DNA of 32,000 bases. Origin: Longivirga aurantiaca. Its GTDB lineage: Bacteria; Actinomycetota; Actinomycetes; S36-B12; CAIYMF01. Position 1 is the stretch's first letter. Each line of letters begins with the position of its first letter. The position numbers and the translations under genes are program-made. Below, piece by piece: positions 19,145-30,485 of this stretch. The notes under the pieces are model-generated. The model was not told the origin of the DNA. It did no database searches and saw only the letters and a program-made list of their open reading frames with translations. Location of the stretch: the NCBI RefSeq assembly GCF_042660085.1, contig NZ_JBHSTI010000001.1, positions 1 to 32,000 on the forward strand, read 5' to 3'.

Positions 19145-19370
19145 GGTGGTGCCTTCCGCTTCGGGTGCGGGCGCCGGGAGGCACCTGTTCGTGGTGGCAC
19201 CCGGCTGGGTCGCAGGGGGTGCTCTCGGGCTGGTGTGCCGCGGTGGACCCGCGGCTCGAGGCGCAACCATCGCCGCCCCGGTGTTGTTCCCACTCTGCCT
19301 GAGCGGTCCGACACCGGCTTCTTCGTTTCTGCTGCGCTGGTTCGGGCTCAACCCGCAGCCAGCCGACGGC

Positions 19371-19376
19371 TACGGT
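19371..19376 (+). promoter_or_regulatory. -10-like hexamer TACGGT, leaderless-type promoter for the HipA-like kinase gene
   Basis: A TANNNT hexamer lies 6 nt upstream of ATG 19383. Confidence 0.4.
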
Positions 19377-19382
19377 GACCGC

Positions 19383-20162
19383 ATGACCTCGGCGTTGCGT
19401 ACCGTGCGCGCGACCCGCTACGTGCTCGCCCTGCGCGAGGGCGGCTCGTTGCCGGGCATCGTCGAGGCCGACGACCTGGGCACCTACGTGCTCAAGTTCC
19501 GCGGCGCGGGCCAGGGCCTGCTCGCCCTCGTGGCCGAGGTGGTGACGGGCGAGCTCGCCCGCCGCCTCGGCCTGCCGGTGCCCGAGCTGGTGCTGGCCGA
19601 GCTCGACGGCGGCCTCGCCAACGCCGAGCCCGACGAGGAGGTGCAGGACCTCCTGCGCGCGAGCCACGGCCTCAACCTCGGGATGGACTTCCTGCCCGGC
19701 GCCCTCGGCCTGGAGCGGCCCGACGGCGTCGACCCGCGCCTCGCAGCGCAGGTCGTCTGGTTCGACGCGCTCGTGCTCAACGTCGACCGCTCGTGGCGCA
19801 ACCCCAACCTGCTGCGCTGGCACGGCGACCCGTACCTCATCGACCACGGCGCGGCCCTCTACTTCCACCACGACTGGTCGAGCGCGGCGACCGTGCCGGG
19901 GCGGGCCTACCCCTCGCCGCGCGACCACGTGCTCATGCCCGTGGCCGGCCCCCTCGACGCCGCCCACGCCGCGCTCGCACCCCGCGTCACCGCCGAGCTG
20001 CTCGACGAGGTGCTCGGGCTCGTGCCCGACCAGTGGCTGACCGCGGACGACGCTCACGCCGACGAGCGGCGTACGGCGTACCGCGACCTCCTGCTCGCCC
20101 GCGCGACGAACGCCGACGCGTGGCTCCCCGCCCTGGAGGTGGCCCGTGCCTCATACCTATGA
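19383..20162 (+). CDS. HipA-like serine/threonine kinase family protein
   Basis: 259 aa from MTSALRTV. YVLKFRGAGQG is a P-loop-like region with Lys. LVLNVDRSWRNPNLL is a HipA-type catalytic D-x-x-x-x-N loop. LIDHGAAL is a DFG-equivalent. It is always read together with the overlapping DUF3037 gene. Confidence 0.7.
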   Translation: MTSALRTVRATRYVLALREGGSLPGIVEADDLGTYVLKFRGAGQGLLALVAEVVTGELARRLGLPVPELVLAELDGGLANAEPDEEVQDLLRASHGLNLGMDFLPGALGLERPDGVDPRLAAQVVWFDALVLNVDRSWRNPNLLRWHGDPYLIDHGAALYFHHDWSSAATVPGRAYPSPRDHVLMPVAGPLDAAHAALAPRVTAELLDEVLGLVPDQWLTADDAHADERRTAYRDLLLARATNADAWLPALEVARASYL

Positions 20163-20532
20163 GTGGGCGGTGCTGCGGGTCGTCCCGCGCGTGGAGCGCT
20201 GCGAGTTCGTGAACGTCGGCGTGGTCGTCTACTGCCAGGCGCTCGACTACCTGGCCTGCTCCGTCGCCGACGACCTCGGCCGGGCCCTGTCTCTCGACCC
20301 GACGCTCGACGTCGAGGGCGTGCGCGCCCACCTCGACGCCGTCCGCGCGGTCTGCGAGGGATCGCCCGAGGCGGGCGCGAACGGTGCCCGCAAGCAGGGC
20401 GAGCGCTTCCGATGGCTCGTCGCCCCCCGCAGCACCGTGGTGCAGCCCTCCCCCGTGCACACGGGCATCACCGAGTCCCCGGAGGCCGAGCTGGCCGACC
20501 TTGCGGCGCGGATGGTCGCGCCGCCCTCGTAG
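20146..20532 (+). CDS. DUF3037 domain-containing protein
   Basis: 128 aa. The N-terminus YEWAVLRVVPRVERCEFVNVGVVVY is the DUF3037 hallmark as I recall it. GTG 20146 is preceded by GGAGGTG at a 5-nt spacing. It overlaps the kinase gene by 17 nt. Confidence 0.75.
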   Translation: MPHTYEWAVLRVVPRVERCEFVNVGVVVYCQALDYLACSVADDLGRALSLDPTLDVEGVRAHLDAVRAVCEGSPEAGANGARKQGERFRWLVAPRSTVVQPSPVHTGITESPEAELADLAARMVAPPS

Positions 20533-20566
20533 GCCCCCTCCTGGACACGCGCCGGGCGGGATTGGC

Positions 20567-20572
20567 TACCCT
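20567..20572 (+). promoter_or_regulatory. -10-like hexamer TACCCT upstream of the small membrane protein gene
   Basis: A TANNNT hexamer lies 7 nt upstream of ATG 20580. Confidence 0.3.
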
Positions 20573-20579
20573 CCATGCC

Positions 20580-20789
20580 ATGAGCGGCGCAGAGAGCACC
20601 CACGACGAGCACCACGCCCACAAGGACAGCCCGGTCGCGGCGTCCATCGTCGGGCTGGTCATCGTGATGATCTTCGGCCAGGCCTTCGCCGTGCTCAACA
20701 GCGGCACCTGGGAGACCGGGGTGATCATCGCCGCCGTCGTCCTGGCCGCCTGGACCCTCGTGACGATCTGGGTCCTCGACCGCGACTGA
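20580..20789 (+). CDS. Small membrane protein with a His-rich N-terminus
   Basis: 69 aa. MSGAESTHDEHHAHKDSP is followed by two hydrophobic helices. It is convergent with the copD/ctaG gene, with a 21-nt gap. Coding status is supported only by the ORF, the hydropathy pattern and the start context. Confidence 0.5.
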   Translation: MSGAESTHDEHHAHKDSPVAASIVGLVIVMIFGQAFAVLNSGTWETGVIIAAVVLAAWTLVTIWVLDRD

Positions 20790-20810: not shown

Positions 20811-22877
20811 TCAGTCCGACCCCTCGCCGCGACGCTTCTCGCTGTCGGCGAGCCGCGCGAGGTACGCGTTGTAGTCCGCGTGCACGTCGCGCCCCCTGCC
20901 CGTCGACGCCGCGCGCTCCTGGGCCCGGTCGCCGCGCCTCGCCTCGCGCTCGTCGCTCTTCACCCACTGCAGGAACAGCGCGATCATCACGATCACGATG
21001 GGCACCTCGCCCAGCGCCCAGCCGATGCTCCCGCCGAGGTGCTGGTCGGCCAGCAGGTCGGTGAGGTACGGCCGCTCCAGCCCGCCGAACCAGTCCTCGG
21101 CGAGGACCTGCGTGGTGGCCATGATCGCCAGCGAGAAGAACGAGTGCAGCGGTATCACGACCAGCAGGATGATGATGCGCACGAGGTACGGCGGACGCGT
21201 GGGCCCCGGGTCGACGCCGATGAGGCTCCAGAAGAAGAGCGAGCCGGCGAGCAGGAAGTGCACGCCCATGAAGATGTGGCCCCAGTGGCTCGTCATGAGC
21301 GTCGGGAACAGCGCCGTCAGGTAGAGGACGTAGAAGCTCGCCACGAAGATGACGGCCGCCACGATCGGGTTGGAGATCACCGTCACGTACCGCGAGTGGA
21401 TGACCATCGTGAGCCACTCGCGGGGGCCCACCTGGTCGCCACCCCGCGGGAGCGTGCGCAGCGCGAGGGTCACGGGCGCCCCGAGCACGAGGAAGATCGG
21501 CGCCACCATGCTCAGCACCATGTGCTGAACCATGTGCACGCTGAACAGCACCGACGCGTACGTCGCCAGCCCGGTGTTGGTCGCGACCAGGATCAGCGCG
21601 CAGCCGACGTACCAGAGCAGGCTGCGGCTGACCGGCCACCGGTCGCCCTCGCGCCGCAGGACGTGGGTGCCCGTCGCGTAGAGCGCGATCATCAGGCAGC
21701 CGACCGCCAGCCAGAAGCCGTCGAGCCGCGCCTCGCCCCAGAGCAGCCCCGTGAGCGAGGGAACCGGCGGCAGGTCGAAGCCGAGCAGCAGCCTCGCCGG
21801 GCTGAGCGCGTCGACGGGCAGCTCGCCCGAGACGGGCGGCGGCGTGCGCGACAGCGCGACCGCGACACCGACGGTCGCTGCCATCACGAGCACCTCGACC
21901 GCCGCGATGCGCAGGAACCCGCGCCGCGCGGTGTCGCCCGAGAGCGCGGGCAGCACGTGCCGCCGGTGCCAGACGCCGAACCACGCGAGCGCGCCGATCA
22001 GCACCACCTTGAGCAGCACGAGCCGGCCGTACGACGTGCTCAGCAGATCCGACGGGGAGGCGAGCCGCACCGCGGCGCTCGCGACGCCCGACAGGGCGAG
22101 GGCCACCGCGCACCACAGTGCGAGCCGGCTGAACCGCGGCACCGCCACCGGCAGCGGGCGCCGGTCGCTCGAGCCGAGGAGGACGAGCGCGACGAGCCCG
22201 CCGACCCACACCGAAGCGGCGAGCACGTGGAGCATGAGGCTCGAGACGGCGAGGGTGTGCTGGTCGGAGGTGCCCGCGTGCGACACGAGCGTGGTGGGCA
22301 GCGTCGCTCCGAGCGCGACCAGGCAGAGCAGGCCCGCACCGGTCGTGGTGCGGATCCACCGGGCGCACACCGCGACGCTCAGGGCGAGCAGCAGCTGCAC
22401 GAGCAGGGCGCGTCCGAGCTCGACGTCGGAGACGAAGCTCCGGAGCAGGGTCGGGTCGAGCACCTCGCCGATCGGCAGCGCGATGATGTCCGACAGCGAC
22501 GTCACCATCTGGCCCAGGACGATGGCGCACCAGACGAGCGCCGACCAACGCGCTGCCCGGGTCCAGGTGAGGCGTGCACCGCGCAGGAGCCCGTCGCGCG
22601 CAGGCACGAGCACCGCACCGAGCAGCAGCAGCCCTACCGTGAGCACCGCCGCCAGGTCGCCGAGCACCCGCAGCACCGGCACCGCCCACTGCGTGCCGAG
22701 GCCGGGGTCGGGCAGCCCGTCGGGGGCGGTGACCGGTCGACCGTCGCCGACCCAGAGCAGCAGGGCCATCACCGTCACGGCGACGACGACGGCGGCGCCG
22801 AGCAGCACGGCGGGGCGCGGGGCGGCAGCGCCGTCCGCCTCCCGTCTCTGCGGCTGGGCCGCCGTCGTGGTGGTCAT
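20811..22877 (-). CDS. copD: Bifunctional copper resistance CopD / cytochrome c oxidase assembly CtaG-like membrane protein
   Basis: 688 aa polytopic protein. The N-terminal half is CopD-like and the C-terminal half is caa3-CtaG-like (HMVQHMVL, HSFFSLAIM). Its ATG overlaps the copC stop (ATGA at 22874-22877). Confidence 0.8.
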   Translation of the reverse strand: MTTTTAAQPQRREADGAAAPRPAVLLGAAVVVAVTVMALLLWVGDGRPVTAPDGLPDPGLGTQWAVPVLRVLGDLAAVLTVGLLLLGAVLVPARDGLLRGARLTWTRAARWSALVWCAIVLGQMVTSLSDIIALPIGEVLDPTLLRSFVSDVELGRALLVQLLLALSVAVCARWIRTTTGAGLLCLVALGATLPTTLVSHAGTSDQHTLAVSSLMLHVLAASVWVGGLVALVLLGSSDRRPLPVAVPRFSRLALWCAVALALSGVASAAVRLASPSDLLSTSYGRLVLLKVVLIGALAWFGVWHRRHVLPALSGDTARRGFLRIAAVEVLVMAATVGVAVALSRTPPPVSGELPVDALSPARLLLGFDLPPVPSLTGLLWGEARLDGFWLAVGCLMIALYATGTHVLRREGDRWPVSRSLLWYVGCALILVATNTGLATYASVLFSVHMVQHMVLSMVAPIFLVLGAPVTLALRTLPRGGDQVGPREWLTMVIHSRYVTVISNPIVAAVIFVASFYVLYLTALFPTLMTSHWGHIFMGVHFLLAGSLFFWSLIGVDPGPTRPPYLVRIIILLVVIPLHSFFSLAIMATTQVLAEDWFGGLERPYLTDLLADQHLGGSIGWALGEVPIVIVMIALFLQWVKSDEREARRGDRAQERAASTGRGRDVHADYNAYLARLADSEKRRGEGSD

Positions 22878-23542
22878 GACGAGGAGCCTGCCTTGCCACG
22901 GCGTGAGGCCGCCACCGCAGCGGTCGCCAGGACGAGCACGGCGAGGCCGCCGAGCACCCACGGCAGGGCCGATCCTCCGGTGGCCTCGGACGAGACCGGC
23001 GACGTGCTGGGCTCGGGCTCGACCGATGCGCTGCCGGTCGGTGCTGCCGCCGACGACCCGGACGGCTCCGCGGTCCCGGGCTCCGAGGCCGACTCGCTCG
23101 GCTCGTCCGTGGCCGTCGGGCTCGGCGACGGCACCGAGGCGACGGTGAACATGAGGCTGCCGGTGACGGGATGCCCGTCCGAGGAGACGACGCGGTACGA
23201 CACCCGCACCTCGCCGGCGACGGTGGGCGGCGTGATGGCCCGGGTGATGACTGCGCCGTCGACGACGAGCGGGCCGTCGGCGAGCCGCACGCCGGCGGAG
23301 TCGGTGACGACGACGGCCGTGCCGAGCTCCAGCACCTCCTCGCCGAAGGTGAGGGTGACGGCCGCGGGTGCCTCCTCGAGCGAGGCGCCGTCAGCCGGGT
23401 CGGTCGAGACGAGCTCGTCGTGCGCCGAGGCCGGGGACGCGAGCGCCACCGGGGCGAGGACCAGTGCGGCGGCCGCGACCGCGGCGCCGACAAGCGATCG
23501 GATCCGGCGCCGCGAGGCGCGAGCAGGACGGGACGTGGACAT
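22874..23542 (-). CDS. copC: CopC-domain copper-binding protein (secreted, C-terminal membrane anchor)
   Basis: 222 aa. A signal peptide ends at ASA, followed by HDELVSTDPADGASL (mature N-terminal His, CopC/YobA signature) and VSSDGHPVTG. It also has a Ser/Pro/Glu-rich linker and a C-terminal TM helix. An AGAAGG SD is present. Confidence 0.85.
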   Translation of the reverse strand: MSTSRPARASRRRIRSLVGAAVAAAALVLAPVALASPASAHDELVSTDPADGASLEEAPAAVTLTFGEEVLELGTAVVVTDSAGVRLADGPLVVDGAVITRAITPPTVAGEVRVSYRVVSSDGHPVTGSLMFTVASVPSPSPTATDEPSESASEPGTAEPSGSSAAAPTGSASVEPEPSTSPVSSEATGGSALPWVLGGLAVLVLATAAVAASRRGKAGSSS

Positions 23543-23596
23543 GCAGGACCTTCTGTCGGTGGTGGGGTGGCGGCAGCGCACGCCCCACCTTCCAGG

Positions 23597-24181
23597 TCAG
23601 CAGGGCGCGAGGAGCCTCGGCGGCCCGCGCCGCGGGCGTCGGCCGACCACGACCAGGCCGGTGCCGGACACAGCCGCCGAGCAGCCCGTGACCGCGAGCG
23701 TCACCATCGCCGGGACGGTGGCGCGCGCGGTGACCAGCCGGACAGCGTGCACCAGCGACCAGAGCGAGAGGGCGCACGCCTCGAGTGCCGCGAGGAGGAG
23801 GGCCGCGACCACCACGGCCGCCGCGTGCGCGAGCAGCATCCGGCCGTCGGGCCCGACGTGCGCGTGGGCCGGGTGCGACGCCGGGCCCACCGCGGACAGG
23901 CGCGGGTCGACGGCACCCGTCGGCGACGTGAGCCACAGGACGCCGTGCACCGCGGGCTGCGCGGCGACGAGGGCCACCAGCAGGCGCGGCGCCGTCCACC
24001 GCTGCGCCGAGGCGACGACGGTGCCGGCCACGACCAGGGCCAGCGCCGCGACGACCGCCGGCGTGACGGCGTCGCCGCCGCCGAGCACGTGGCCGCCGAC
24101 GGCGACGAGCGCCCCGACCAGCCCCACCACGAGGCCGCGGACGCGCCGCAGCGGCGTCACAGGTCGTCGGCTGCCGGTCAC
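23597..24181 (-). CDS. Hypothetical polytopic membrane protein with a His-rich loop, first gene of the cop operon
   Basis: 194 aa with about 4-5 hydrophobic segments and a loop sequence ASHPAHAHVGPDG. The GTG start at 24181 is supported by a TACGAT hexamer 6 nt upstream. I recognised no family. Confidence 0.5.
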   Translation of the reverse strand: MTGSRRPVTPLRRVRGLVVGLVGALVAVGGHVLGGGDAVTPAVVAALALVVAGTVVASAQRWTAPRLLVALVAAQPAVHGVLWLTSPTGAVDPRLSAVGPASHPAHAHVGPDGRMLLAHAAAVVVAALLLAALEACALSLWSLVHAVRLVTARATVPAMVTLAVTGCSAAVSGTGLVVVGRRPRRGPPRLLAPC

Positions 24182-24187
24182 CCGGCC

Positions 24188-24193
24188 ATCGTA
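24188..24193 (-). promoter_or_regulatory. -10-like hexamer TACGAT (minus strand), leaderless-type promoter for the cop-cluster membrane protein gene
   Basis: A TANNNT hexamer lies 6 nt upstream of GTG 24181. Confidence 0.35.
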
Positions 24194-24405
24194 GGTGAGG
24201 GCCGGGGGCCCGCCCGCTGGGGCTGCGGTGAACGGCGGGAGAGCGAGCCGGGGCTTCGTCCGTCCCCGAGCCTCGCCCGCGCGTGCGGGGAACCTCTCAG
24301 TTGCCTCTCCCCGGTGGGATCGGAGCCCTCACCGCGCCAGAATGCACGTGCGCGCGCCGTGAGCGAGCACGCCATCCGGCGCCAGGCACCGACGGAGAGA
24401 GAGTC

Positions 24406-24777
24406 ATGAGCGACATCACCGCGGAGACCGTGAACCGCGCTCGCCTCGACTCCCTCGTCGACGAGATCGGCGACCAGGACATCGTCCGCCAGGCCGTGCA
24501 GAGCTTCCTCGACGAGCTGGTCGAGCGCCTCCAGGCGATCCGGACCACGATCTCGGGCGGCGACGCCGCGGAGATCAAGAAGGCCGCGCACGCCCTCGGC
24601 TCGCCGGCGGCCATGCTCGGCGCGATCGAGGTCAACCGCATCTGCCGCGCCATGCAGGACCAGTGCGACGCCGGCGGGGACGTGCTCGCGCCTGTGATGG
24701 CCGACCTCGACGCCAGCTCCGCGCGCACAGTGTCCGGGCTGCGGGCGTACCTCGCCGAGTCGGCGGCCACCGCCTGA
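24406..24777 (+). CDS. Stand-alone Hpt (histidine phosphotransfer) domain protein
   Basis: 123 aa. KKAAHALGSPAAMLGA matches the Hpt H-x-L-K-G-S-x-x-x-x-G motif, with His62 at codon 24589-24591. A GGAGAGAGAG SD lies upstream. It is convergent with the hybrid kinase, with a 34-nt gap. Confidence 0.8.
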   Translation: MSDITAETVNRARLDSLVDEIGDQDIVRQAVQSFLDELVERLQAIRTTISGGDAAEIKKAAHALGSPAAMLGAIEVNRICRAMQDQCDAGGDVLAPVMADLDASSARTVSGLRAYLAESAATA

Positions 24778-24811
24778 GCCGTGCGCCCCGCGCGCGGTCT
24801 GCGTCGGCGGC

Positions 24812-26545
24812 CTACGTGCTGCTCGCGCCGTCCAGCCAGCGCTGCACCATGCCGGAGAGCGCGTCGATGCCGAACGGCTTGCTGAGGTAGTCGACCATCC
24901 CTGCGTCGCGGCACAGGTCGCGCTCGGTCTGCCCGACGTGCGCCGTGAGCGCGACGATCGGCACGTCGGCGGGGGTCGCACCGCCACCGTGGATGCGCCA
25001 CCAGCGCGTCGCCTCGCGCCCGTCCATGCCGGGCATCTGCACGTCCATGAGGACGAGCCCGTACGCCGTGACCCGCAGCGCCTCGATCGCGGCCTCGCCG
25101 CTCTCGACCACGTCGGTGGTGACGCCGAGCTTCCCCAGCATCGCGGCGGCGAGCCTGCGGTTGACGTCGTTGTCGTCGACCAGGAGCACCCGCGTGCTGT
25201 GGTCGGACCGGACCGTGGGCACGTGCACCGGTGCGTGCACGCGCAGCCGGGCCGCCGTACCGCCCTCGGCGCGGCGCCTGACCTCGACCGTCCCCCCGAG
25301 GGCCGCAGCGAGGCGTGCGGTCTGGGCCAGTCCGGAGCCTCCGGTGGGCCGGCTCGGCGTCTCCCAGGAGCAGCCGATGCCGTCGTCGACGACGTCGAAG
25401 ACCACGGCGTCGTCCTCGAGCGAGACGCTCAGCTGCACGGCCTCGGCGTGTGCGTGACGCACGGCGTTGTCGACGAGCTCGTCGAGGACCTGGGTGACGA
25501 GGGGCAGGGCGAGCTCGACCGGGTGGTCGCCCGGAGGGACCGACGCGACGGTCACCGGCACCGCGGTGCTCGAGTGGCGCTCGGCGACCTCGGTCACCAG
25601 GTCGCGCAGCACCGTCGGGGTACGCGGCCCGGCGACGCGACGCTCGGTGCCGTCGGCGATGGCGACGAGGGCGTCGGCCAGGCGGTCCAGCCGGTCGAGG
25701 TCGGCCGTGCCCTGCGAGTCCTCGGCGTCCACGCGGCCGCGCAGGTCGACCGAGACGTCGTGCAGCTCGTGCACGACCCACGCCGCGTACGCCGTGCGCG
25801 CGTCGTCGGTGCTCCTGCCGTGCCGGGTGAGCGCGGCCACGTCCTGGGTGCGCTGCGCCAGCAGCTCCTCGAGCCGGCGGCGGTCGTCGGCCTGGCGCTG
25901 CTGGGCCCGCTCCCACTCGACCGCGCGCCCCAGCTGGGCGGCGAGGGACGGTGCCAGCTGCAGCAGCCGCTCGTCGGCCGGCATCGGCTCGGGGTGCAGG
26001 AACTCCACGACTGCGACGACCTCGATGCCGGTGATGATCGGGAACGCCCAGGTGGATCCGGCCGCCTCGCCCTCGCGCCCGCGCCCCGGCGCCACCGACG
26101 TGTCGGGCACCCACGCCGCGAGGTGCGAGGCACCCACCTCGCCCGGGAGCCCCACCGCCGGGGTGAAGCGCCGGTCGACGGTCGCACCCATCACCGCATC
26201 GAGGAAGTCGAGCTCGACGGGGTCGGCGTCCCAGATGTCGGAGGTGACGAACGCGCCGTCGGGCTCGCGCAGCAGCACGTGCGAGACCGCGAACCTGCAG
26301 TGCCGGCGTACGACCTTCGCCGCTGCGCTCATCGCGGACAGGGCGTCGTCGGTCTCGTTGACGATGACCGCGATGGAGGCCAGCAGCTCCACCTCGCGGG
26401 CGCGCTCGAAGGCCCGCCTCAGCTGCATCTCGGCCGTGCGCTCGGCCTCGAGACGCGCGGCCCGCTCCTGCGCGGCGCGGTGCTCGAGGCGTGCGATCCC
26501 GTCCGGACCGACGTCGTCCGGGACCGAGCGCGGGTCGATGCTCAC
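24812..26545 (-). CDS. Soluble hybrid sensor kinase: coiled coil - GAF - HisKA-like - HATPase_c - receiver
   Basis: 577 aa from GTG 26545 (GTGA overlap with the upstream stop). The GAF-like region runs from EVELLASIAV to AAQLGRAVE. The H-box-like sequence is AAWVVHELHDVSVDL, the N-box LDELVDNAVRHA, and the G-boxes DDGIG and GGSGLA. The receiver is intact: LLVDDN, LVLMDVQMPGMDG (Asp codon 25043-25045) and YLSKP. No TM segment. Track ORF 24812..28324 is over-extended into the upstream gene. Confidence 0.8.
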   Translation of the reverse strand: MSIDPRSVPDDVGPDGIARLEHRAAQERAARLEAERTAEMQLRRAFERAREVELLASIAVIVNETDDALSAMSAAAKVVRRHCRFAVSHVLLREPDGAFVTSDIWDADPVELDFLDAVMGATVDRRFTPAVGLPGEVGASHLAAWVPDTSVAPGRGREGEAAGSTWAFPIITGIEVVAVVEFLHPEPMPADERLLQLAPSLAAQLGRAVEWERAQQRQADDRRRLEELLAQRTQDVAALTRHGRSTDDARTAYAAWVVHELHDVSVDLRGRVDAEDSQGTADLDRLDRLADALVAIADGTERRVAGPRTPTVLRDLVTEVAERHSSTAVPVTVASVPPGDHPVELALPLVTQVLDELVDNAVRHAHAEAVQLSVSLEDDAVVFDVVDDGIGCSWETPSRPTGGSGLAQTARLAAALGGTVEVRRRAEGGTAARLRVHAPVHVPTVRSDHSTRVLLVDDNDVNRRLAAAMLGKLGVTTDVVESGEAAIEALRVTAYGLVLMDVQMPGMDGREATRWWRIHGGGATPADVPIVALTAHVGQTERDLCRDAGMVDYLSKPFGIDALSGMVQRWLDGASST

Positions 26546-28950
26546 TGGGCCTGCCCGAGCACGACGTCGAGCAGCCGACGGAGCTCGCCGATGTCGACCG
26601 GCTTGCCGATGTGGCCGTCCATGCCGCTGGTGCGGCACCGGTCGAGCACGGCGTCGTCCGAGCCGCCGAACATCGCGTACACCGGCACCTTGGCCACGGC
26701 TGGGTTGCGCGACCTGCGGATGCGCTCGGTCATGTCCGGACCGTCCAGTCCCGTCATGCGTGCAGACACGAGGACGAGCCTCGTGCCCGGGGCGGACTCG
26801 AGGAGCTCGAGAGCCTCCTCGCACGAGGCGACGGCGACGCCCGAGGTGCCCAGGCGCTGCAGCAGGCGCATGACGTGGCCGCGGCGCGGCTCGCTCGACT
26901 CGACGACGAGCACCGAGGGGGCGACCCGCACCGGGGTCTCGCGCACGTCCTCGTCCGAGGTGTCGGCGGCGACCTCCTCGAGGCGCAGGACGAAGCGGAA
27001 CGCCGATCCCACGCCGACGGCGGAGTCGACCACGATCTGCCCACCCATGAGCCCGACGAGCCGGTCGGCGATCGCGAGCCCCAGCCCGGTGCCCTCCTGG
27101 CTGCTGCGGGCCTGGACGAAGGGGTCGAAGATCGACGCGGCCTGCTCGGGCACGATGCCGGGGCCGGTGTCGCGCACCTCGACCTCGACGACGGACTCCG
27201 GGCCGCGCTGGGACACCAGGCGCAGCGCGAGCGAGACCGAGCCGGACTCGGTGAACTTCACCGCGTTGCCGACGAGGTTGACGAGCACCTGCCGGAACCG
27301 CACCGGGTCGCCGAGCACGCGCGACGGCGTCCCGGGGTCGATCGACAGCGCCAGCTCGATTCCCTTCGCCCGCGCCTGCGGCCCGAGGAGGTCGACGACG
27401 GCCTTCGCGCTGTCGGCGACCGAGAAGGGCTCGGTCACGAGGTCGATGCGGCCGGCCTCGACCTTCTGCAGGTCGAGGATGTCGTTGATGATCGACACGA
27501 GGTTGGTGGCCGACATGTCGATGACGCCGACGAGCTCGCGCTGCTCGCCGTCGAGGTCGGTCGTGCGCAGCAGGTCGACGGTGGCGAGCACGCCGTGCAT
27601 CGGCGTGCGGATCTCGTGGCTCATCGAGGCGAGGAACTGCGACTTCGCGTCCGAGGCTGCGATCGCCTCGTCGCGGGCGCGGGCGAGCGCCCCCTGGTAG
27701 AGCACGCGGTCGGTCGCGTCCCGGAACATCCAGAGCGCCCCGAGGTCCTGCCCCTCGGACACGATGGGCTGGAAGTCGAACTCGAGCACGCGCGATCCCG
27801 AAAGGGTCAGCGACTGGTTGGATGTGGGCCACCGACGCGCGGTGAGGGTCTCGGTACGCCGCAGGAACGCTGCCGGGTCGTCCTCGGGGCGCACGACCTG
27901 CGCGATGGCCGCGCTGATCGGAAGCCCGGTGAGCTCGTCGGGGTCGGCCTCGGAGCGGAACATCTGGCAGAGCATGGCGTTGGCCATCACGATGCGTCGC
28001 TGCCGGTCCTCGACGAGCACGCCCGACTGCATGTGGTCGAGGAGCGTGGTGAGGCGCGACATCGTGTCGTGCAGCTCGATCTCCGCGGTCTTGGTCTTGG
28101 TGATGTCGAGCATGAAGCCGAAGCGGCGTCGTCGCCCGTCCTCGTCCTCGACGACGGTGTCGACCGCCCGGGTCCAGACAACCTGACCGTCGGCGCACAG
28201 CAGCCGAACCTCCTCGTCGTACGGGCTGTCGTCCGCCTCGGCGGCGCGGTTGGCCGCCCAGGCCCGCTCGCGGTCCTCGGGGTGCACGACCACCCGGAAG
28301 AAGAAGGCCTGCTCGGTGAGCCACCGGCGTACGGGGTAGCCCAGCCAGTCGACCACCTGGGGGCTGATGAACTCGGCCACCGACTCGTCGCCGAGGGTGT
28401 CGATGTACATCACGAGCGGCTGCAGCTCGACGATGCGGCGGTACTGCGCCTCGGCCCGGGTGAGCATCCGGTTGGCATCACGGAGCTCGGTGGCCGACCG
28501 CTGCAGCTCGGCGTTCAGCGTGCGCAGGTCGTCGAGGCTGCGCTCCTGGCCGCGGCGCAGGAACAGCAGGTCGGGGGTCTGGTCGACCGGGGAGAAGTCC
28601 GCCGCGGACAGCCCGAGACGATCGAGCTCCTGGGACGAGGAGACGATCGGGTTGCCGATGAGCAGGACTCCGGGCGGGTCCGAGACGTCGACCGCCTGGA
28701 AGCGCAGCCGGGGACCCTCGGGCAGCAACCGCATGAGCAGCATGGAGTCGCGGTGGTCGCGGATCTGCTCGATCGTGGACACGCCGAGGGGGCGGACCAC
28801 CTCGAGCACCTCGAGGAGCGGGCGACCGACCAGGTCGACCCCGAGGCGCGCCCACGACGGGCCCTGCCGGACGACGACGAGGTCCTCGTCGCACAGCACC
28901 CCGAACGGTGCCGCGCGGTCGAGGTCGTCGTCGCGGAGCTGGATGCTCAC
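26542..28950 (-). CDS. Soluble sensor histidine kinase: HNOBA - PAS - PAS - HisKA - HATPase_c - degenerate receiver
   Basis: 802 aa. The N-terminal ~170 aa aligns by eye block-for-block with the sGC beta1 H-NOX-associated domain (see findings). It has two PAS-like repeats, an H-box FLASMSHEIRTPMHG, an N-box VNLVGNAVKFT, and DTGPGI / GTGLGLAI. In the C-terminal receiver fold the acceptor position reads LVLVSARMTGLDG, with a Ser codon at 26764-26766. GTG 28950 overlaps the H-NOX stop. Confidence 0.85.
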   Translation of the reverse strand: MSIQLRDDDLDRAAPFGVLCDEDLVVVRQGPSWARLGVDLVGRPLLEVLEVVRPLGVSTIEQIRDHRDSMLLMRLLPEGPRLRFQAVDVSDPPGVLLIGNPIVSSSQELDRLGLSAADFSPVDQTPDLLFLRRGQERSLDDLRTLNAELQRSATELRDANRMLTRAEAQYRRIVELQPLVMYIDTLGDESVAEFISPQVVDWLGYPVRRWLTEQAFFFRVVVHPEDRERAWAANRAAEADDSPYDEEVRLLCADGQVVWTRAVDTVVEDEDGRRRRFGFMLDITKTKTAEIELHDTMSRLTTLLDHMQSGVLVEDRQRRIVMANAMLCQMFRSEADPDELTGLPISAAIAQVVRPEDDPAAFLRRTETLTARRWPTSNQSLTLSGSRVLEFDFQPIVSEGQDLGALWMFRDATDRVLYQGALARARDEAIAASDAKSQFLASMSHEIRTPMHGVLATVDLLRTTDLDGEQRELVGVIDMSATNLVSIINDILDLQKVEAGRIDLVTEPFSVADSAKAVVDLLGPQARAKGIELALSIDPGTPSRVLGDPVRFRQVLVNLVGNAVKFTESGSVSLALRLVSQRGPESVVEVEVRDTGPGIVPEQAASIFDPFVQARSSQEGTGLGLAIADRLVGLMGGQIVVDSAVGVGSAFRFVLRLEEVAADTSDEDVRETPVRVAPSVLVVESSEPRRGHVMRLLQRLGTSGVAVASCEEALELLESAPGTRLVLVSARMTGLDGPDMTERIRRSRNPAVAKVPVYAMFGGSDDAVLDRCRTSGMDGHIGKPVDIGELRRLLDVVLGQAQ

Positions 28951-29504
28951 GGTGCCCCGGACGCCGTCAGCCGTACGTGGAAGACCTCGTGGTCGGTGCC
29001 GTCGGACGCGACGGCGTCGTGGGTGACCGCTGCGGGCGTGCCGTAGAGGTCGCCGAGCCCTTCGAGCAGGCCCACGACGAACGGCACGAGCCCGGCCCGC
29101 TCGGACCGGTAGTGGACGTCGAGGCCGTCCTCACCCGTCTCGACGACGTCGAACGACGGCGGTCGCAGCTCCGGGTAGAGCGACTGCAGCCGCGCGTGCA
29201 TCTCGTCGAGGTTGCGCAGCACGGACGCCACGTCGGTGCCCGTCGCGCCCAGGATGTCGCCGTAGCTCTCGGGCCCGACGCGGGTGGACCAGTAGTGGCC
29301 GAACCCGCGCAGCAGGTCCTCGGCCGGTGCGTCGAGCACCTCGCTCGCGGCCCCGACGAGGGCGTAGGTCACCGAGTCGTCGTAGTAGTGCAGGGCGGCG
29401 AACGTCTGGCTGGTCTCGGCCCGGAGGGCGATGCTGCTCCAGGCGGCGGGGCCGGCGTTCTCCACGACGTGGCGGCGCATCGCCTCGTTGATGAGCCCGT
29501 ACAT
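28947..29504 (-). CDS. hnoX: H-NOX (haem nitric oxide/oxygen binding, HNOB) domain protein
   Basis: 185 aa from MYGLINEAM (compare sGC beta1 MYGFVNHAL). The proximal-His context is NLDEMHARL, with His103 at codon 29196-29198. The haem-propionate motif Y132-x-S134-x-R136 is in VHYRSERAG. A GGAGAGGGG SD lies 8 nt upstream of ATG 29504. The track start GTG 29513 is too close to the SD. Confidence 0.85.
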   Translation of the reverse strand: MYGLINEAMRRHVVENAGPAAWSSIALRAETSQTFAALHYYDDSVTYALVGAASEVLDAPAEDLLRGFGHYWSTRVGPESYGDILGATGTDVASVLRNLDEMHARLQSLYPELRPPSFDVVETGEDGLDVHYRSERAGLVPFVVGLLEGLGDLYGTPAAVTHDAVASDGTDHEVFHVRLTASGAP

Positions 29505-29570
29505 CGACGGCACCCCTCTCCGACTCGACGGCGTGGCCGTGCGCCCGCGGCGGGCGGGCGGACGGTCGGA

Positions 29571-30257
29571 TCAGACCGGCTCGAACCGGTACCCGACCCC
29601 ACGCAGCGTACGGATGTGCCGCGGCGATGCGGCGGACTCGCCGAGCTTCTTGCGCAGCTTGCCGACGTGGACCTCGATGACGTGGTCGTCGCCGAACCAC
29701 TCGCCCCAGATCTGCTCGAGCAGCTGCTCGCGGGTGAAGATGCGGCGCGGGTTGCCCGAGAGCAGGTCCAGGATGTCGAACTCGATCTTGGTGAGCTCGA
29801 CCTCCTCGCCGTCGACCTTCACCTCGCGGGCCAGCGGATCGACGATCAGGTGGCCGAAGTCGCGGACCTCCTGCTGCGCGCGCTGACGGGGGCGGCGGCG
29901 CATCGCGCGGATGCGGGCGGCGAGCTCGCGCGGGGAGAAGGGCTTCGTGACGTAGTCGTCGGCGCCGACCGTGAGGCCCACGATCTTGTCGACCTCGTCG
30001 TCGCGCGAGGTGACCATCACGACGTACGCGTCGCTGAAGACGCGGAGCTGGCGGCACACCTCGACGCCGTCGCAGTCCGGGAGCGAGAGGTCGAGGATGA
30101 CGAGCTCGGGCTTGCCGGCCCGGGCGAACTCCAGCCCCTTCTTCCCGAGCGGGGTCGCGACGACGTCGTACCCCTCCTTCTCGAGGAGACCGCGAACGAG
30201 CAGGGTGATCTCTGGCGAGTCCTCGATGATGAGGGCTTGACCTCGCTGGGTGGCCAC
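29571..30257 (-). CDS. OmpR/PhoB-family response regulator (receiver + winged helix)
   Basis: About 228 aa. It has LVILDLSLPDCDG (acceptor Asp) and YVTKPF, with a C-terminal wHTH containing LTKIEFDIL and RTLRGVGYRF. The start is uncertain: GTG 30257 (AAAGGA SD 9 nt upstream) is preferred, with ATG 30308 and TTG 30374 as alternatives. Confidence 0.85.
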   Translation of the reverse strand: MATQRGQALIIEDSPEITLLVRGLLEKEGYDVVATPLGKKGLEFARAGKPELVILDLSLPDCDGVEVCRQLRVFSDAYVVMVTSRDDEVDKIVGLTVGADDYVTKPFSPRELAARIRAMRRRPRQRAQQEVRDFGHLIVDPLAREVKVDGEEVELTKIEFDILDLLSGNPRRIFTREQLLEQIWGEWFGDDHVIEVHVGKLRKKLGESAASPRHIRTLRGVGYRFEPV

Positions 30258-30454
30258 GATGCCTGTCCTTTCGCCTTGTCCGGTGACGGGGCGGACTGAC
30301 TGAGACATCGGCGCGGATTGCGCGCGTCCTGAGTTACTCCGTCCGTGTTCCACCGGAAGTACCTCTCCGGTCAACTCCGTCGCTCACTTCATCACATCCG
30401 CCTCTCGGGATGCTCAACGAGCGATCAGCGGACGAGAGCGATCGGAGAGGAACC

Positions 30455-30485
30455 GGTGACCGCGGCGTACGCCGACCCGGTCACC
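30455..30485 (-). terminator. Nested hairpin overlapping the AI-2E transporter stop codon, a possible terminator
   Basis: GGTGACC (30455-30461) pairs with GGTCACC (30479-30485). These enclose the palindrome GGCGTACGCC. On the minus strand it is followed by GGTTCCTCTCC. Confidence 0.3.

What the first reader, a model, noticed from the sequence alone, without database searches (positions are those of the whole stretch)
24406..30257. Complete cytoplasmic H-NOX-headed phosphorelay (OmpR regulator, H-NOX, HNOBA kinase, GAF hybrid kinase, Hpt) in a high-GC actinobacterial context
Five adjacent genes supply every part of a His-Asp-His-Asp relay headed by a stand-alone haem gas-sensor domain:
- an OmpR-type regulator (29571-30257);
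- an H-NOX protein (28947-29504);
- an 802-aa soluble HNOBA-PAS-PAS kinase (26542-28950);
- a 577-aa soluble GAF hybrid kinase with receiver (24812-26545);
- a convergent 123-aa Hpt protein (24406-24777).

The H-NOX/kinase and kinase/kinase junctions are both GTGA start/stop overlaps (28947-28950 and 26542-26545). This argues for translational coupling and co-complex formation.

The bacterial H-NOX circuits I know of come from Proteobacteria, Firmicutes and cyanobacteria. They pair H-NOX with a simple kinase or a GGDEF/EAL enzyme. I am not aware of a characterised H-NOX pathway from high-GC Actinobacteria, or of this five-part, two-kinase architecture. No regulon target is visible in the window.
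Basis: partly seen in the sequence, partly recalled or inferred. Interest (0 to 1): 0.85.

Follow-up and report, generated by a model that had tools for sequence, protein, structure and literature searches.

The report
Actinobacterial H-NOX two-kinase phosphorelay cluster
Five adjacent genes in an uncultured high-GC actinobacterium encode a probable nitric-oxide sensor (H-NOX haem protein), two soluble histidine kinases, a phosphotransfer protein and a DNA-binding regulator; the parts are all of known kinds, but this wiring (one kinase carries a dead receiver) and this bacterial lineage have not been studied.

Summary
All five genes, their coordinates, their domain calls and both GTGA start/stop overlaps are confirmed.

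One omission matters. The 802-aa HNOBA kinase also ends in a receiver domain, and its phospho-acceptor Asp is replaced by Ser729. It is a pseudo-receiver.

The H-NOX is of the Nostoc/sGC type. It has the proximal His103 and the YxSxR motif, Phe at the distal Tyr position, and no Cys. It probably senses NO or CO, not O2.

The cluster is conserved in at least 5 related MAG species labelled Candidatus Nanopelagicales, Actinomycetes or Actinomycetota. Relatives form an architectural series:
- H-NOX plus a single HNOBA kinase with fused receiver and Hpt, plus an OmpR-type regulator.
- A six-gene form with a second, Shewanella-type H-NOX in front of the GAF kinase.
- The five-gene form seen here.
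- Forms with no H-NOX at all.

The only complete His-Asp-His-Asp route here runs through HK2 Asp501, then Hpt His62, then regulator Asp56. HK1 most likely feeds this route in trans.

H-NOX relays that use a hybrid kinase and an Hpt are already characterised in Proteobacteria, and the HNOBA kinase type has a solved cyanobacterial domain structure. My verdict is a new variant of a known kind, uncharacterised in Actinomycetota. Interest is about 0.5. No regulon target was identified.

The parts
29571..30257 (-). OmpR-family response regulator, 228 aa, with phospho-acceptor Asp56 (codon 30090-30092). First gene of the minus-strand unit.
   Evidence: Pfam Response_reg 1.5e-26 and Trans_reg_C 8e-27. 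D56 verified. It is 97-99% identical to the L001-L003 orthologues. No NCBIfam equivalog passes its cut-off.
28947..29504 (-). Stand-alone H-NOX haem sensor, 185 aa. Key residues: proximal His103 (29196-29198), Y132-x-S134-x-R136 (29097-29111), and Phe142 at the distal Tyr position (29079-29081). It contains no Cys.
   Evidence: Pfam HNOB 1.1e-39 over the full length. Best solved relative is Nostoc Alr2278 H-NOX at E 1e-45, followed by sGC beta1 at 5e-27. H103, P111, P116, Y132, S134 and R136 are invariant across relatives.
26542..28950 (-). HK1, an 802-aa soluble kinase with the order HNOBA, PAS, PAS, HisKA, HATPase_c, pseudo-receiver.
   Evidence: Pfam. The kinase core resembles TorS, BarA, LuxQ and ArcB but no equivalog passes its cut-off. 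No transmembrane segment.
28444..28917 (-). HK1 HNOBA module (residues about 12-169): an sGC-type PAS domain plus signalling helix. It is the presumed docking site for the H-NOX.
   Evidence: Pfam HNOBA scores 41.6 bits against a cut-off of 23.4. Residues 12-156 align to sGC beta1 213-374 at E 8e-4, and to Nostoc punctiforme kinase H-NOXA 2P04 at E 0.078. Along with HisKA and the second PAS, it is among the best-conserved HK1 domains: 83-92% identity in the subclade.
27451..27648 (-). HK1 HisKA/DHp domain with phospho-His445 (27616-27618) in the motif SHEIRTPMHG.
   Evidence: Pfam HisKA 6.4e-19. The H-box is invariant in all orthologues. Codon checked.
26977..27312 (-). HK1 catalytic ATP-binding domain. 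The N, G1, F and G2 boxes are intact.
   Evidence: Pfam HATPase_c 5.1e-26. Box alignment.
26572..26913 (-). HK1 C-terminal pseudo-receiver. The phospho-acceptor Asp is Ser729 (26764-26766). The acid pocket DD reads E684-S685 (26896-26901). The conserved Thr is Phe761. Lys783 is kept.
   Evidence: Pfam Response_reg 2.4e-10. Alignments with CheY, HK2-REC and the orthologues. Codons checked. The domain is still 67-83% identical within the subclade.
24812..26545 (-). HK2, a 577-aa soluble hybrid kinase. Layout: N-terminal long helix (14-64), GAF (68-184; 25994-26344), DHp hairpin (192-298) with His259 (25769-25771), CA domain (309-437), and an intact receiver (453-571) with Asp501 (25043-25045).
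   Evidence: Pfam HATPase_c and Response_reg, with GAF_2 sub-threshold. AlphaFold full-length model pLDDT 86. The N-terminal model matches GAF folds. The full-length model matches hybrid kinases such as ShkA and the DHp-CA of CpxA. H259 is at least 90% conserved and D501 is invariant in 61 homologues. N, G1 and G2 boxes are intact.
24406..24777 (+). Stand-alone Hpt protein, 123 aa, with His62 (24589-24591) in the motif AAHALGSPAAMLG. It is convergent with HK2, 34 bp apart, and has a GGAGAGAGAG Shine-Dalgarno sequence upstream.
   Evidence: Pfam Hpt 5.4e-12. The His motif is invariant in all stand-alone orthologues and aligns with the fused Hpt domain of relatives. Sequence read.
28947..28950 (-). 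GTGA overlap: H-NOX stop codon and HK1 start codon.
   Evidence: Read directly from the sequence. Overlaps of 4 bp at the same junction are called in L012, L013 and L014.
26542..26545 (-). GTGA overlap: HK1 stop codon and HK2 start codon.
   Evidence: Read directly from the sequence. The same 4-bp overlaps are called at the HK1/HK2 junction in L013-L016, and at the HK1/HNOX2 and HNOX2/HK2 junctions in L008.
30258..30480 (-). Region upstream of the regulator gene. It holds a conserved block that includes an inverted pair of TGAGC-N5-GAGAGG (30401-30416 and 30435-30450). Role unknown: it could be an operator or a hairpin following the AI-2E transporter gene.
   Evidence: Alignment of seven loci. 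Pattern search. With 2 mismatches the pattern is not enriched in the window.
24182..24405 (.). Divergent intergenic region between Hpt and the operon encoding the 194-aa membrane protein, CopC and CopD-CtaG. It holds a conserved (T/A)GAG(C/G)-N5-GAGAGG element at 24293-24308.
   Evidence: The element persists in L001-L003, L013 and L004. Whether it is functional was not tested.

Best explanation
This is a functional, cytoplasmic, multi-step phosphorelay that ends at an OmpR-type transcription factor. One of its inputs is a haem H-NOX protein of the Nostoc/sGC type.

What is shown by sequence, profiles and models:
- The H-NOX keeps all haem-ligating residues and has an apolar distal pocket.
- Its gene is translationally coupled to HK1. 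The N-terminus of HK1 is the HNOBA module (PAS plus signalling helix) that follows the H-NOX domain in soluble guanylate cyclase. The pair is therefore a split sGC sensor attached to a histidine kinase instead of a cyclase.
- HK1 has an intact H-box (H445) and ATP-binding domain, but its own receiver cannot be phosphorylated (Ser729).
- HK2 has a GAF sensor, a DHp domain with H259, an intact ATP-binding domain and an intact receiver (D501).
- Hpt (H62) and the regulator (D56) are intact.

What is inferred:
- Fe(II) H-NOX binds NO (possibly CO) and changes HK1 autophosphorylation. By analogy with every characterised H-NOX/kinase pair, NO binding inhibits it.
- HK1~P passes its phosphoryl group in trans to D501 of HK2. 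HK2 also phosphorylates D501 itself, under control of whatever its GAF domain senses.
- The phosphoryl group then moves from D501 to Hpt H62 to regulator D56, which changes transcription.
- The relay thus integrates an NO signal and a second signal at a single receiver.
- The retained pseudo-receiver of HK1 probably serves as a docking or regulatory domain.
For: - Domains.
- H-NOX residues and nearest solved relatives.
- HNOBA match to the sGC PAS/coiled-coil region and to 2P04.
- Catalytic residues, and the dead receiver present in the whole subclade (window, L001, L002, L003/L014, L013).
- HK2 fold.
- Hpt His conservation, and homology with the fused Hpt of relatives.
- GTGA coupling.
- The gene order, including the convergent Hpt, is conserved across H-NOX identities from 93% down to 63%, while the upstream flank changes (AI-2E transporter in some loci, acetyl-CoA hydrolase in others).
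- Simpler relatives have H-NOX, HNOBA-kinase-REC-Hpt in one polypeptide, and an OmpR regulator. This is the same logical relay, and it supports the proposed order of transfer.
- HNOBA is among the best-conserved domains of HK1.
- Precedent for NO-bound H-NOX inhibiting a hybrid kinase that signals through a separate Hpt: PMC4436077.
- Precedent, from a paper title and abstract only, for one hybrid kinase working through another kinase's relay (LadS with GacS/GacA): PMC4866733.
Against: - No biochemical evidence exists for any step.
- The HK1 DHp specificity region and the HK2 receiver alpha-1 helix are essentially unchanged between forms where HK1 has a live receiver (L008) and forms where it is dead (window). 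There is therefore no sequence signature of rewiring toward HK2.
- HK1 could phosphorylate the OmpR regulator directly.
- The regulator-HK1-HK2-Hpt core exists in relatives with no H-NOX gene (L015, L016). The H-NOX is thus an accessory input, not the defining head.
- HK2 has no HisKA Pfam hit. In the L004/L005 lineage its ATP-binding domain is degenerate, so in some lineages HK2 acts only as a receiver or scaffold.
- The output genes are unknown.
- Ligand selectivity is predicted only from the absence of the distal Tyr. That rule is recalled from established H-NOX literature and was not tested here.
Confidence: 0.55

Rival explanations
1. There are two separate branches, not a linear relay. 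HK1, having lost its receiver, acts as a classical kinase and phosphorylates the OmpR regulator directly under H-NOX control. HK2 and Hpt then form either a second, independent input to the same regulator or a phosphate sink (regulator~P to Hpt to HK2 D501, followed by hydrolysis).
For: - The regulator gene is first in the same transcription unit as H-NOX and HK1.
- HK1 has no usable receiver.
- There is no sign of rewiring of the HK2 receiver surface.
- The Hpt gene is transcribed separately, from the opposite strand.
Against: - The HK1 H-box region (SHEIRTPMHG...) is nearly identical to that of relatives in which the kinase feeds its own fused receiver and Hpt (L010-L012). Its core is most similar to the hybrid or unorthodox kinases TorS, BarA, LuxQ and ArcB. 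This argues for a hybrid-type receiver as its partner.
- In the fused relatives, the OmpR regulator is reached through REC and Hpt.
Confidence: 0.27
2. Control is by kinase-kinase contact rather than phosphotransfer. HK1 modulates HK2, or the reverse, through heteromeric contact in the manner of RetS/GacS. The pseudo-receiver or the DHp domain acts as the interface, and the phosphoryl groups come from only one of the two kinases.
For: - The pseudo-receiver is retained at 67-83% identity, not decaying.
- The HK1 and HK2 genes are translationally coupled.
- In the L004/L005 lineage HK2 has a degenerate ATP-binding domain but is retained. Non-catalytic roles therefore exist in this family.
- RetS blocking of GacS autophosphorylation is a known precedent (PMC4866733 abstract).
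Against: Both kinases in the window keep a full set of catalytic motifs. No interface prediction could be run.
Confidence: 0.12
3. The H-NOX reports something other than NO, such as O2, CO or redox state.
For: - H-NOX proteins differ in ligand. Haem-free, thiol-based redox sensing is described for Vibrio cholerae H-NOX (PMC8738867).
- Nostoc-type H-NOX proteins also bind CO (recalled from established knowledge).
Against: - There is no Cys in the protein, so a zinc/thiol redox switch is excluded.
- Phe142 sits where O2-binding H-NOX proteins carry Tyr, and the closest relatives are Nostoc H-NOX and sGC.
Confidence: 0.12
4. The five signalling genes are adjacent by chance and have no shared function.
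For: None beyond the general abundance of two-component genes in Actinomycetota.
Against: - The order and orientation are conserved in at least ten contigs while a flank changes.
- The genes overlap by 4 bp.
- The parts are complementary: the only live hybrid receiver, the only Hpt, and one regulator.
Confidence: 0.02

Closest known systems
Nostoc/cyanobacterial H-NOX (Alr2278; PDB 2O09, 4IAE) and the Nostoc punctiforme H-NOXA/HNOBA-containing signal-transduction histidine kinase (PDB 2P04/2P08)
   Same: - The H-NOX here is closest to Alr2278 (E 1e-45; 42% identity in the alignment). It has the same proximal His, YxSxR motif and Trp, and an apolar distal pocket.
- The partner kinase begins with the same sGC-type PAS (HNOBA) module.
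- That the two cyanobacterial genes are adjacent is my recollection of Iyer, Anantharaman and Aravind 2003. I did not verify it here.
   Different: - The phylum is different.
- The match of HK1 to the 2P04 domain is weak (E 0.078).
- The actinobacterial cluster adds a second (GAF) hybrid kinase, a separate Hpt and an OmpR regulator.
- HK1's receiver is dead.
- To my knowledge the cyanobacterial pair has structures but no worked-out pathway.
Silicibacter sp. TrichCH4B H-NOX / hybrid kinase / stand-alone Hpt / response regulator relay (PMC4436077)
   Same: A stand-alone H-NOX gene lies next to a hybrid kinase. NO-bound H-NOX inhibits the kinase. The phosphoryl group passes through a separate Hpt protein to a response regulator.
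   Different: - That system is proteobacterial.
- It has one kinase with a live receiver and no HNOBA domain.
- Its output is a diguanylate cyclase, not an OmpR-type DNA-binding regulator.
- Its H-NOX belongs to a different H-NOX lineage.
Vibrio H-NOX/HqsK-LuxU-LuxO quorum-sensing input, and V. fischeri HnoX/HahK feeding the Syp network
   Same: The H-NOX controls a hybrid kinase/phosphatase. The signal converges with other kinases on a shared Hpt (LuxU), so this is a multi-kinase relay (PMC8738867; PMC6759604 and PMC12369376 abstracts). The window's Hpt weakly resembles LuxU.
   Different: - The Vibrio kinases are not HNOBA kinases.
- The kinases are dispersed in the genome, not in one operon.
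- The regulator is NtrC-type.
- No pseudo-receiver is involved.
Animal soluble guanylate cyclase beta1 (H-NOX, PAS/HNOBA, coiled coil, cyclase)
   Same: The H-NOX matches sGC beta1 at E 5e-27. The HK1 N-terminus aligns with the beta1 PAS plus coiled-coil region, residues 213-374. The sensor logic is the same: H-NOX next to an HNOBA PAS domain and a signalling helix.
   Different: - The sensor is split over two polypeptides.
- The output is a histidine kinase rather than a cyclase.
- A cyclase version of the split design was seen in passing in a Planctomycetota MAG (L006).
Unorthodox/hybrid kinase relays with cross-kinase input (GacS/LadS/RetS; RcsC-RcsD-RcsB)
   Same: These are multi-kinase systems in which one kinase works through another kinase's relay, or in which one partner is catalytically degenerate. 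LadS/GacS and RetS come from a paper title and abstract only (PMC4866733). Rcs is recalled from established knowledge.
   Different: Those systems have membrane sensors and no H-NOX. The degenerate element here is a receiver (HK1). In the L004/L005 lineage it is the HK2 ATP-binding domain.

Membership tests
H-NOX / HNOB (PF07700) | Full-length match to the HNOB profile above the curated threshold | tested here: met
   136.4 bits against a cut-off of 25.5, covering profile positions 1-163 of 163.
H-NOX / HNOB (PF07700) | Proximal haem-ligating His, the Y-x-S-x-R propionate-binding motif and the conserved Pro | tested here: met
   H103, Y132/S134/R136, and P111/P116 align with Nostoc H105 and Y134/S136/R138. 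All are invariant in 11 sequences.
H-NOX / HNOB (PF07700) | Actually binds haem and NO | not testable with these tools
   This needs the purified protein and UV-visible spectroscopy.
O2-binding H-NOX subclass (Thermoanaerobacter type) | Distal-pocket Tyr (Tt Tyr140) that hydrogen-bonds O2 | tested here: not met
   The position equivalent to Nostoc M144 is Phe142. The Tt-to-Nostoc residue equivalence is from memory.
Zinc/thiol redox-sensing H-NOX (Vibrio cholerae type) | Conserved Cys cluster | tested here: not met
   The window H-NOX contains no Cys. The second H-NOX found in six-gene relatives does carry C-terminal Cys residues and matches Shewanella H-NOX.
HNOBA / H-NOXA domain (PF07701) | Profile match above threshold, similarity to the sGC PAS/coiled-coil region, and a partner H-NOX | tested here: met
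   41.6 bits against a cut-off of 23.4. sGC beta1 residues 213-374 at E 8e-4; 2P04 at E 0.078. The H-NOX gene overlaps the start of the kinase gene.
Hybrid histidine kinase (HK1) | H-box His and intact N/G1/F/G2 boxes | tested here: met
   H445 lies in SHEIRTPMHG. NAVKF, DTGPGI, FDPF and GTGLGL are present.
Hybrid histidine kinase (HK1) | Receiver with a phospho-acceptor Asp and an acidic pocket | tested here: not met
   Ser729 replaces the Asp, E684-S685 replaces DD, and Phe761 replaces Thr. Only Lys783 is kept. HK1 is a kinase with a pseudo-receiver, not a functional hybrid kinase.
Hybrid histidine kinase (HK2) | DHp with a conserved His, an ATP-binding domain, and a receiver Asp | tested here: met
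   There is no HisKA Pfam hit. The AlphaFold model nevertheless shows a DHp hairpin (residues 192-298). H259 is at least 90% conserved in 61 homologues. N360, D387-x-G-x-G and G402-G-S-G-L are present. D457/D458, D501, T534 and K556 are intact.
GAF domain (HK2 N-terminus) | GAF fold | tested here: met
   Pfam GAF_2 is sub-threshold in the window protein (19.5 against 28.6), although GAF families are recorded for many orthologues. The AlphaFold model (pLDDT 90) matches 1F5M, 3CI6 and 3MMH at target-normalised TM-score (TMt) 0.73-0.80. The ligand is unknown.
Hpt (PF01627) | Profile match above threshold and a conserved phospho-His | tested here: met
   46.2 bits against a cut-off of 24.6. H62 is invariant and aligns with the His of the fused Hpt in L010-L012.
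OmpR/PhoB-family response regulator | Receiver with Asp, plus a winged-helix Trans_reg_C domain | tested here: met
   Pfam. D56 verified. The best NCBIfam models (MtrA, CreB, PhoB) are all far below their cut-offs, so this is not an orthologue of a named regulator.
Named H-NOX pathways (HnoX/HnoK/HnoBCD; HqsK-LuxU-LuxO; HahK) | Orthology of the H-NOX and its kinase to those systems | tested here: not met
   The window H-NOX matches Shewanella H-NOX only at E 3e-7. No NCBIfam equivalog passes. The system works like them but is not a member.

The most novel reading that the evidence does not exclude
In this actinobacterial subclade, the death of HK1's own receiver (Asp to Ser or Ala) has turned a self-contained sGC-type H-NOX/HNOBA hybrid kinase into an obligate trans-donor. 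NO, sensed through the H-NOX, and a second cue, sensed through the GAF domain, are then integrated at one receiver (HK2 D501) and passed through Hpt to an OmpR-type regulator.

If true, this would be the first H-NOX signalling pathway in high-GC Gram-positive bacteria. It would come with a natural series of variants (two, one or no H-NOX genes; live or dead receiver; live or dead HK2 ATP-binding domain) that records how a phosphorelay is rewired. A possible output is the neighbouring genes for copper delivery to cytochrome oxidase.
Probability: 0.3. Interest if true: 0.65.

Novelty: new variant of a known kind. Interest (0 to 1): 0.5.

Why it matters
H-NOX signalling has been worked out only in Proteobacteria. 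For cyanobacteria and Firmicutes there are structures but little pathway knowledge. A 2022 review explicitly lists actinobacterial H-NOX homologues as unstudied.

This cluster gives a compact, all-soluble system that could be reconstituted in vitro. It could test three questions:
- How an sGC-type H-NOX talks to an HNOBA (PAS plus signalling-helix) module when the two are separate proteins. This bears on how sGC is activated.
- Whether a kinase with a dead receiver donates to another kinase's receiver.
- How NO sensing is used by uncultured Actinomycetota known only from metagenome-assembled genomes.

It does not overturn any concept. Every part and the overall logic have precedents.

Tried and rejected
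1. I searched homologues with the HK1 HNOBA segment alone. Only four fragments came back, so I could not tabulate the taxonomy of HNOBA kinases. Cluster-member look-ups gave no organism names. The adjacency of H-NOX and the HNOBA kinase in Nostoc therefore rests on memory plus PDB and paper mentions.
2. I looked for the source of the window. The exact H-NOX sequence is not on record. The nearest relative is a Candidatus Nanopelagicales MAG at 93% identity (L001).
3. I considered CopC and CopD-CtaG as a regulon candidate. They sit next to the cluster in every form. But the wider downstream synteny (DUF3037, HipA_2, MFS, 2OG oxygenase, ROK, DUF2252) is also shared with a distant relative. The adjacency may simply be inherited, so I do not treat it as evidence of a target.
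4. I looked for a shared cis element. TGAGC-N5-GAGAGG occurs upstream of the regulator gene, and in looser form in the intergenic region between Hpt and the membrane-protein gene. It is conserved across loci. With 2 mismatches, however, it is no more frequent in the window than in shuffles (16 observed, 17.8 expected). The upstream pair is an inverted repeat just after the AI-2E transporter gene and could be a terminator hairpin. I make no operator claim.
5. Scans for sigma-70 promoters and intrinsic terminators found nothing. An Rfam scan found nothing.
6. I first thought loss of the second H-NOX and loss of the HK1 receiver Asp were linked. Loci L015 and L016 lack both H-NOX genes yet keep the Asp. 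The dead receiver is better read as a single event in the window's subclade.
7. I looked for rewiring signatures in the HK1 DHp domain and the HK2 receiver alpha-1 helix. I found none.
8. One literature search was badly specified and uninformative.

Full report
**1. Observation**

Pfam confirms each call:
- 29571-30257(-) is a Response_reg plus Trans_reg_C regulator.
- 28947-29504(-) is a full-length HNOB (H-NOX) domain, 1.1e-39.
- 26542-28950(-) has HNOBA (41.6 bits against a threshold of 23.4), two PAS domains, HisKA and HATPase_c.
- 24812-26545(-) has HATPase_c and Response_reg, with a sub-threshold GAF_2 hit.
- 24406-24777(+) is an Hpt.

Both junctions read ...ccGTGAgc... and ...ccaGTGAgc... 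on the minus strand, so they are true start/stop overlaps. A Kyte-Doolittle scan finds no membrane-like segment in any of the five proteins.

The GAF call, weak by sequence, holds structurally. An AlphaFold model of HK2 residues 1-215 (pLDDT 90) matches solved GAF domains 1F5M, 3CI6 and 3MMH at target-normalised TM-score 0.73-0.80. The full-length model (pLDDT 86) shows a long N-terminal helix, GAF, a DHp helical hairpin, a catalytic domain and a receiver. It matches full-length hybrid kinases.

**2.

HK1 also carries a C-terminal receiver domain (Pfam 2.4e-10, residues 680-793). I aligned it with CheY, the HK2 receiver, the regulator's receiver and the orthologues:
- The phospho-acceptor Asp is Ser729.
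- The acidic pair reads Glu684-Ser685.
- The conserved Thr is Phe761.
- Only Lys783 remains.

The same position is Ser or Ala in the close relatives L001, L002, L003/L014 and L013. It is Asp in the more distant L004, L005, L008, L015, L016 and L010-L012. The domain is still 67-83% identical within the subclade. It is a retained pseudo-receiver, not a decaying remnant.

All other catalytic residues are intact:
- HK1: His445 and the N, G1, F and G2 boxes.
- HK2: His259 (conserved in at least 90% of 61 homologues), Asn360, DxGxG, GGSGL, Asp457/458, Asp501, Thr534 and Lys556.
- Hpt: His62.
- Regulator: Asp56.

**3. The sensor**

The closest solved relative of the H-NOX is Nostoc sp. Alr2278 (E 1e-45), followed by animal sGC beta1 (5e-27). 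Shewanella H-NOX is far behind (3e-7).

His103 aligns with the proximal His105 of Nostoc H-NOX. Tyr132-x-Ser134-x-Arg136 aligns with the haem-propionate motif. These residues and Pro111 and Pro116 are invariant across relatives.

The residue aligned with Nostoc Met144 is Phe142. From my memory of the H-NOX literature, that position carries the O2-stabilising Tyr in the Thermoanaerobacter protein. There is no Cys anywhere in the protein, which rules out the zinc/thiol redox mechanism described for Vibrio cholerae H-NOX. I therefore infer an NO (or CO) sensor that does not bind O2 stably.

HK1 residues 12-156 align with the PAS plus coiled-coil segment of sGC beta1 (213-374, E 8e-4). They align weakly with the solved H-NOXA domain of a Nostoc punctiforme histidine kinase (2P04, E 0.078) (PMC2904703). 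The H-NOX and HK1 together therefore reproduce the sGC sensor (H-NOX, PAS, signalling helix) as two polypeptides, joined to a kinase instead of a cyclase. HNOBA is among the best-conserved parts of HK1.

**4. Distribution and evolution**

398 H-NOX homologues were found. Almost all come from metagenomes. The few named ones are 'Candidatus Nanopelagicales bacterium' or 'Actinomycetes bacterium'.

Among GTDB species representatives, a pattern search tuned to close relatives found five actinobacterial MAGs and two Planctomycetota. The window's own sequence is not on record; the nearest is 93% identical.

Gene neighbourhoods fall into a series:

| Form | Loci | Architecture |
|---|---|---|
| a | L010, L011, L012 (H-NOX 49-56% identical) | H-NOX plus one ~945-aa HNOBA-PAS-HisKA-HATPase-REC-Hpt kinase. 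An OmpR regulator is adjacent in L011, and one lies about 3 kb upstream in L010. |
| b | L008/L009 | Regulator, H-NOX1, HK1 with live receiver, H-NOX2, HK2, convergent Hpt. |
| c | L004/L005 | As (b), but the HK2 ATP-binding domain is degenerate. |
| d | Window, L001, L002, L003/L014, L013 | H-NOX2 absent and HK1 receiver dead. |
| e | L015 (Frankiales MAG), L016 | Regulator, HK1, HK2, Hpt with no H-NOX gene. L015 HK1 also lacks HNOBA. |

H-NOX2 in forms (b) and (c) keeps the His and YxSxR residues. It is of the Shewanella type (E 1e-22) and carries C-terminal Cys residues.

The constant core is therefore regulator, HK1, HK2 and Hpt. The H-NOX inputs come and go. The stand-alone Hpt aligns with the fused Hpt of form (a).

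**5. Mechanism**

The only complete His-Asp-His-Asp path in the window runs from a kinase His to HK2 Asp501, then Hpt His62, then regulator Asp56. HK1 cannot use its own receiver.

Its DHp is nearly identical to that of relatives that feed a hybrid-type receiver. Its kinase core resembles TorS, BarA, LuxQ and ArcB. I therefore favour trans-transfer from HK1 His445 to HK2 Asp501, with HK2 contributing a second, GAF-controlled input. [quoted passage not shown]

These steps are inferred, not shown. The main rival is direct phosphorylation of the regulator by HK1, with HK2/Hpt as a parallel input or sink. A second rival is kinase-kinase control of the RetS/GacS type. I found no sequence signature that discriminates between them.

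**6. Output**

No target can be named. CopC, a CopD-CtaG fusion and a 194-aa membrane protein follow the cluster in nearly all forms. The wider downstream synteny is also conserved, however, so this may be plain inheritance.

A conserved TGAGC-N5-GAGAGG-like element occurs upstream of the regulator gene and in the intergenic region between Hpt and the membrane-protein gene. It is not statistically distinctive in the window. No promoter-like site, terminator-like site or Rfam match was found.

**7. Comparison and novelty**

Each domain passes its membership test, with two exceptions:
- HK1 fails as a hybrid kinase because its receiver Asp is missing.
- The H-NOX fails the tests for the O2-binding and thiol-redox subclasses.

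No NCBIfam equivalog passes for any of the five proteins. The system works like the proteobacterial H-NOX relays but is not orthologous to them.

H-NOX relays built on a hybrid kinase and an Hpt are established, and a cyanobacterial HNOBA kinase domain has been solved. A 2022 review notes uncharacterised H-NOX homologues in Actinobacteria. Two literature searches found no characterised actinobacterial pathway.

The cluster is therefore a new variant of a known kind. The lineage is new and the wiring is new (two kinases, a pseudo-receiver, a split Hpt), but no principle is new. I score interest at 0.5.

Noticed in passing
L006:4767-6622 (Planctomycetota MAG RFON01000025): A stand-alone H-NOX (46% identical to the window's) is followed, with overlap, by a 499-aa protein carrying HNOBA plus a class III Guanylate_cyc domain. 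This is a bacterial 'split sGC'.
   Followed up: partly
L007:10001-13668 (Phycisphaerales MAG): An H-NOX and a 560-aa HNOBA-HisKA-HATPase-REC kinase are followed by a convergent 473-aa GAF...REC protein. The pairing of an HNOBA kinase with a GAF/receiver protein therefore recurs outside Actinomycetota.
   Followed up: partly
L008:9468-10004; L004:12977-13513; L005:11587-12123: Six-gene relatives carry a second H-NOX between HK1 and HK2. It is only 25-27% identical to H-NOX1 and is of the Shewanella type (2KII/4U99, E 1e-22). It keeps the His and YxSxR residues and has C-terminal Cys residues. Two H-NOX lineages thus sit in one operon.
   Followed up: yes
L004:13486-15231; L005:12096-13841: In these lineages the HK2 ATP-binding domain has lost its N, G1 and G2 boxes, while His259, GAF and the receiver are kept. 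This is a pseudo-kinase variant.
   Followed up: yes
L015:3375-8132 and L016:3254-8167: The regulator-HK1-HK2-Hpt core is present with no H-NOX gene. L015 HK1 starts at the PAS domain and has no HNOBA. L016 HK1 keeps HNOBA but has an internal deletion.
   Followed up: yes
window 20811-24181 (-): This stretch encodes a 194-aa five-helix membrane protein with no Pfam or NCBIfam match, a CopC protein, and a 716-aa CopD plus Caa3_CtaG fusion. The operon is transcribed divergently from Hpt and is adjacent to the relay in nearly all relatives. From memory, the fusion resembles the actinobacterial cytochrome aa3 copper-insertion factor CtiP.
   Followed up: partly
window 30401-30450 and 24293-24308: Conserved TGAGC-N5-GAGAGG-type elements occur at two places. 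One is an inverted pair upstream of the regulator gene. The other is a single copy in the intergenic region between Hpt and the membrane-protein gene. The pattern is not enriched relative to shuffles, and its role is unknown.
   Followed up: partly
window 29571-30257 compared with L001-L003: The regulator is 97-99% identical across species whose H-NOX (79-93%), HK1 (77-87%) and HK2 (70-86%) have diverged much more. This is unusually strong constraint on the output protein.
   Followed up: no
L012:579-8879: In a relative of the fused form, the H-NOX/kinase pair lies about 1 kb upstream of a cupredoxin gene and about 2.5 kb upstream of cydAB. A CydDC-like ABC transporter gene follows on the opposite strand. 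Together with the window's CopC/CopD-CtaG neighbours, this hints at a link to terminal oxidases, which are known NO targets.
   Followed up: no
window 19134-20789 (+): A HipA_2-like kinase gene is followed by a 208-aa ORF that corresponds by position to the DUF3037 gene next to HipA_2 in relatives. The 208-aa ORF had no Pfam hit at E 1e-4. The pair keeps its position next to CopD in L008, L013, L014 and L016.
   Followed up: no
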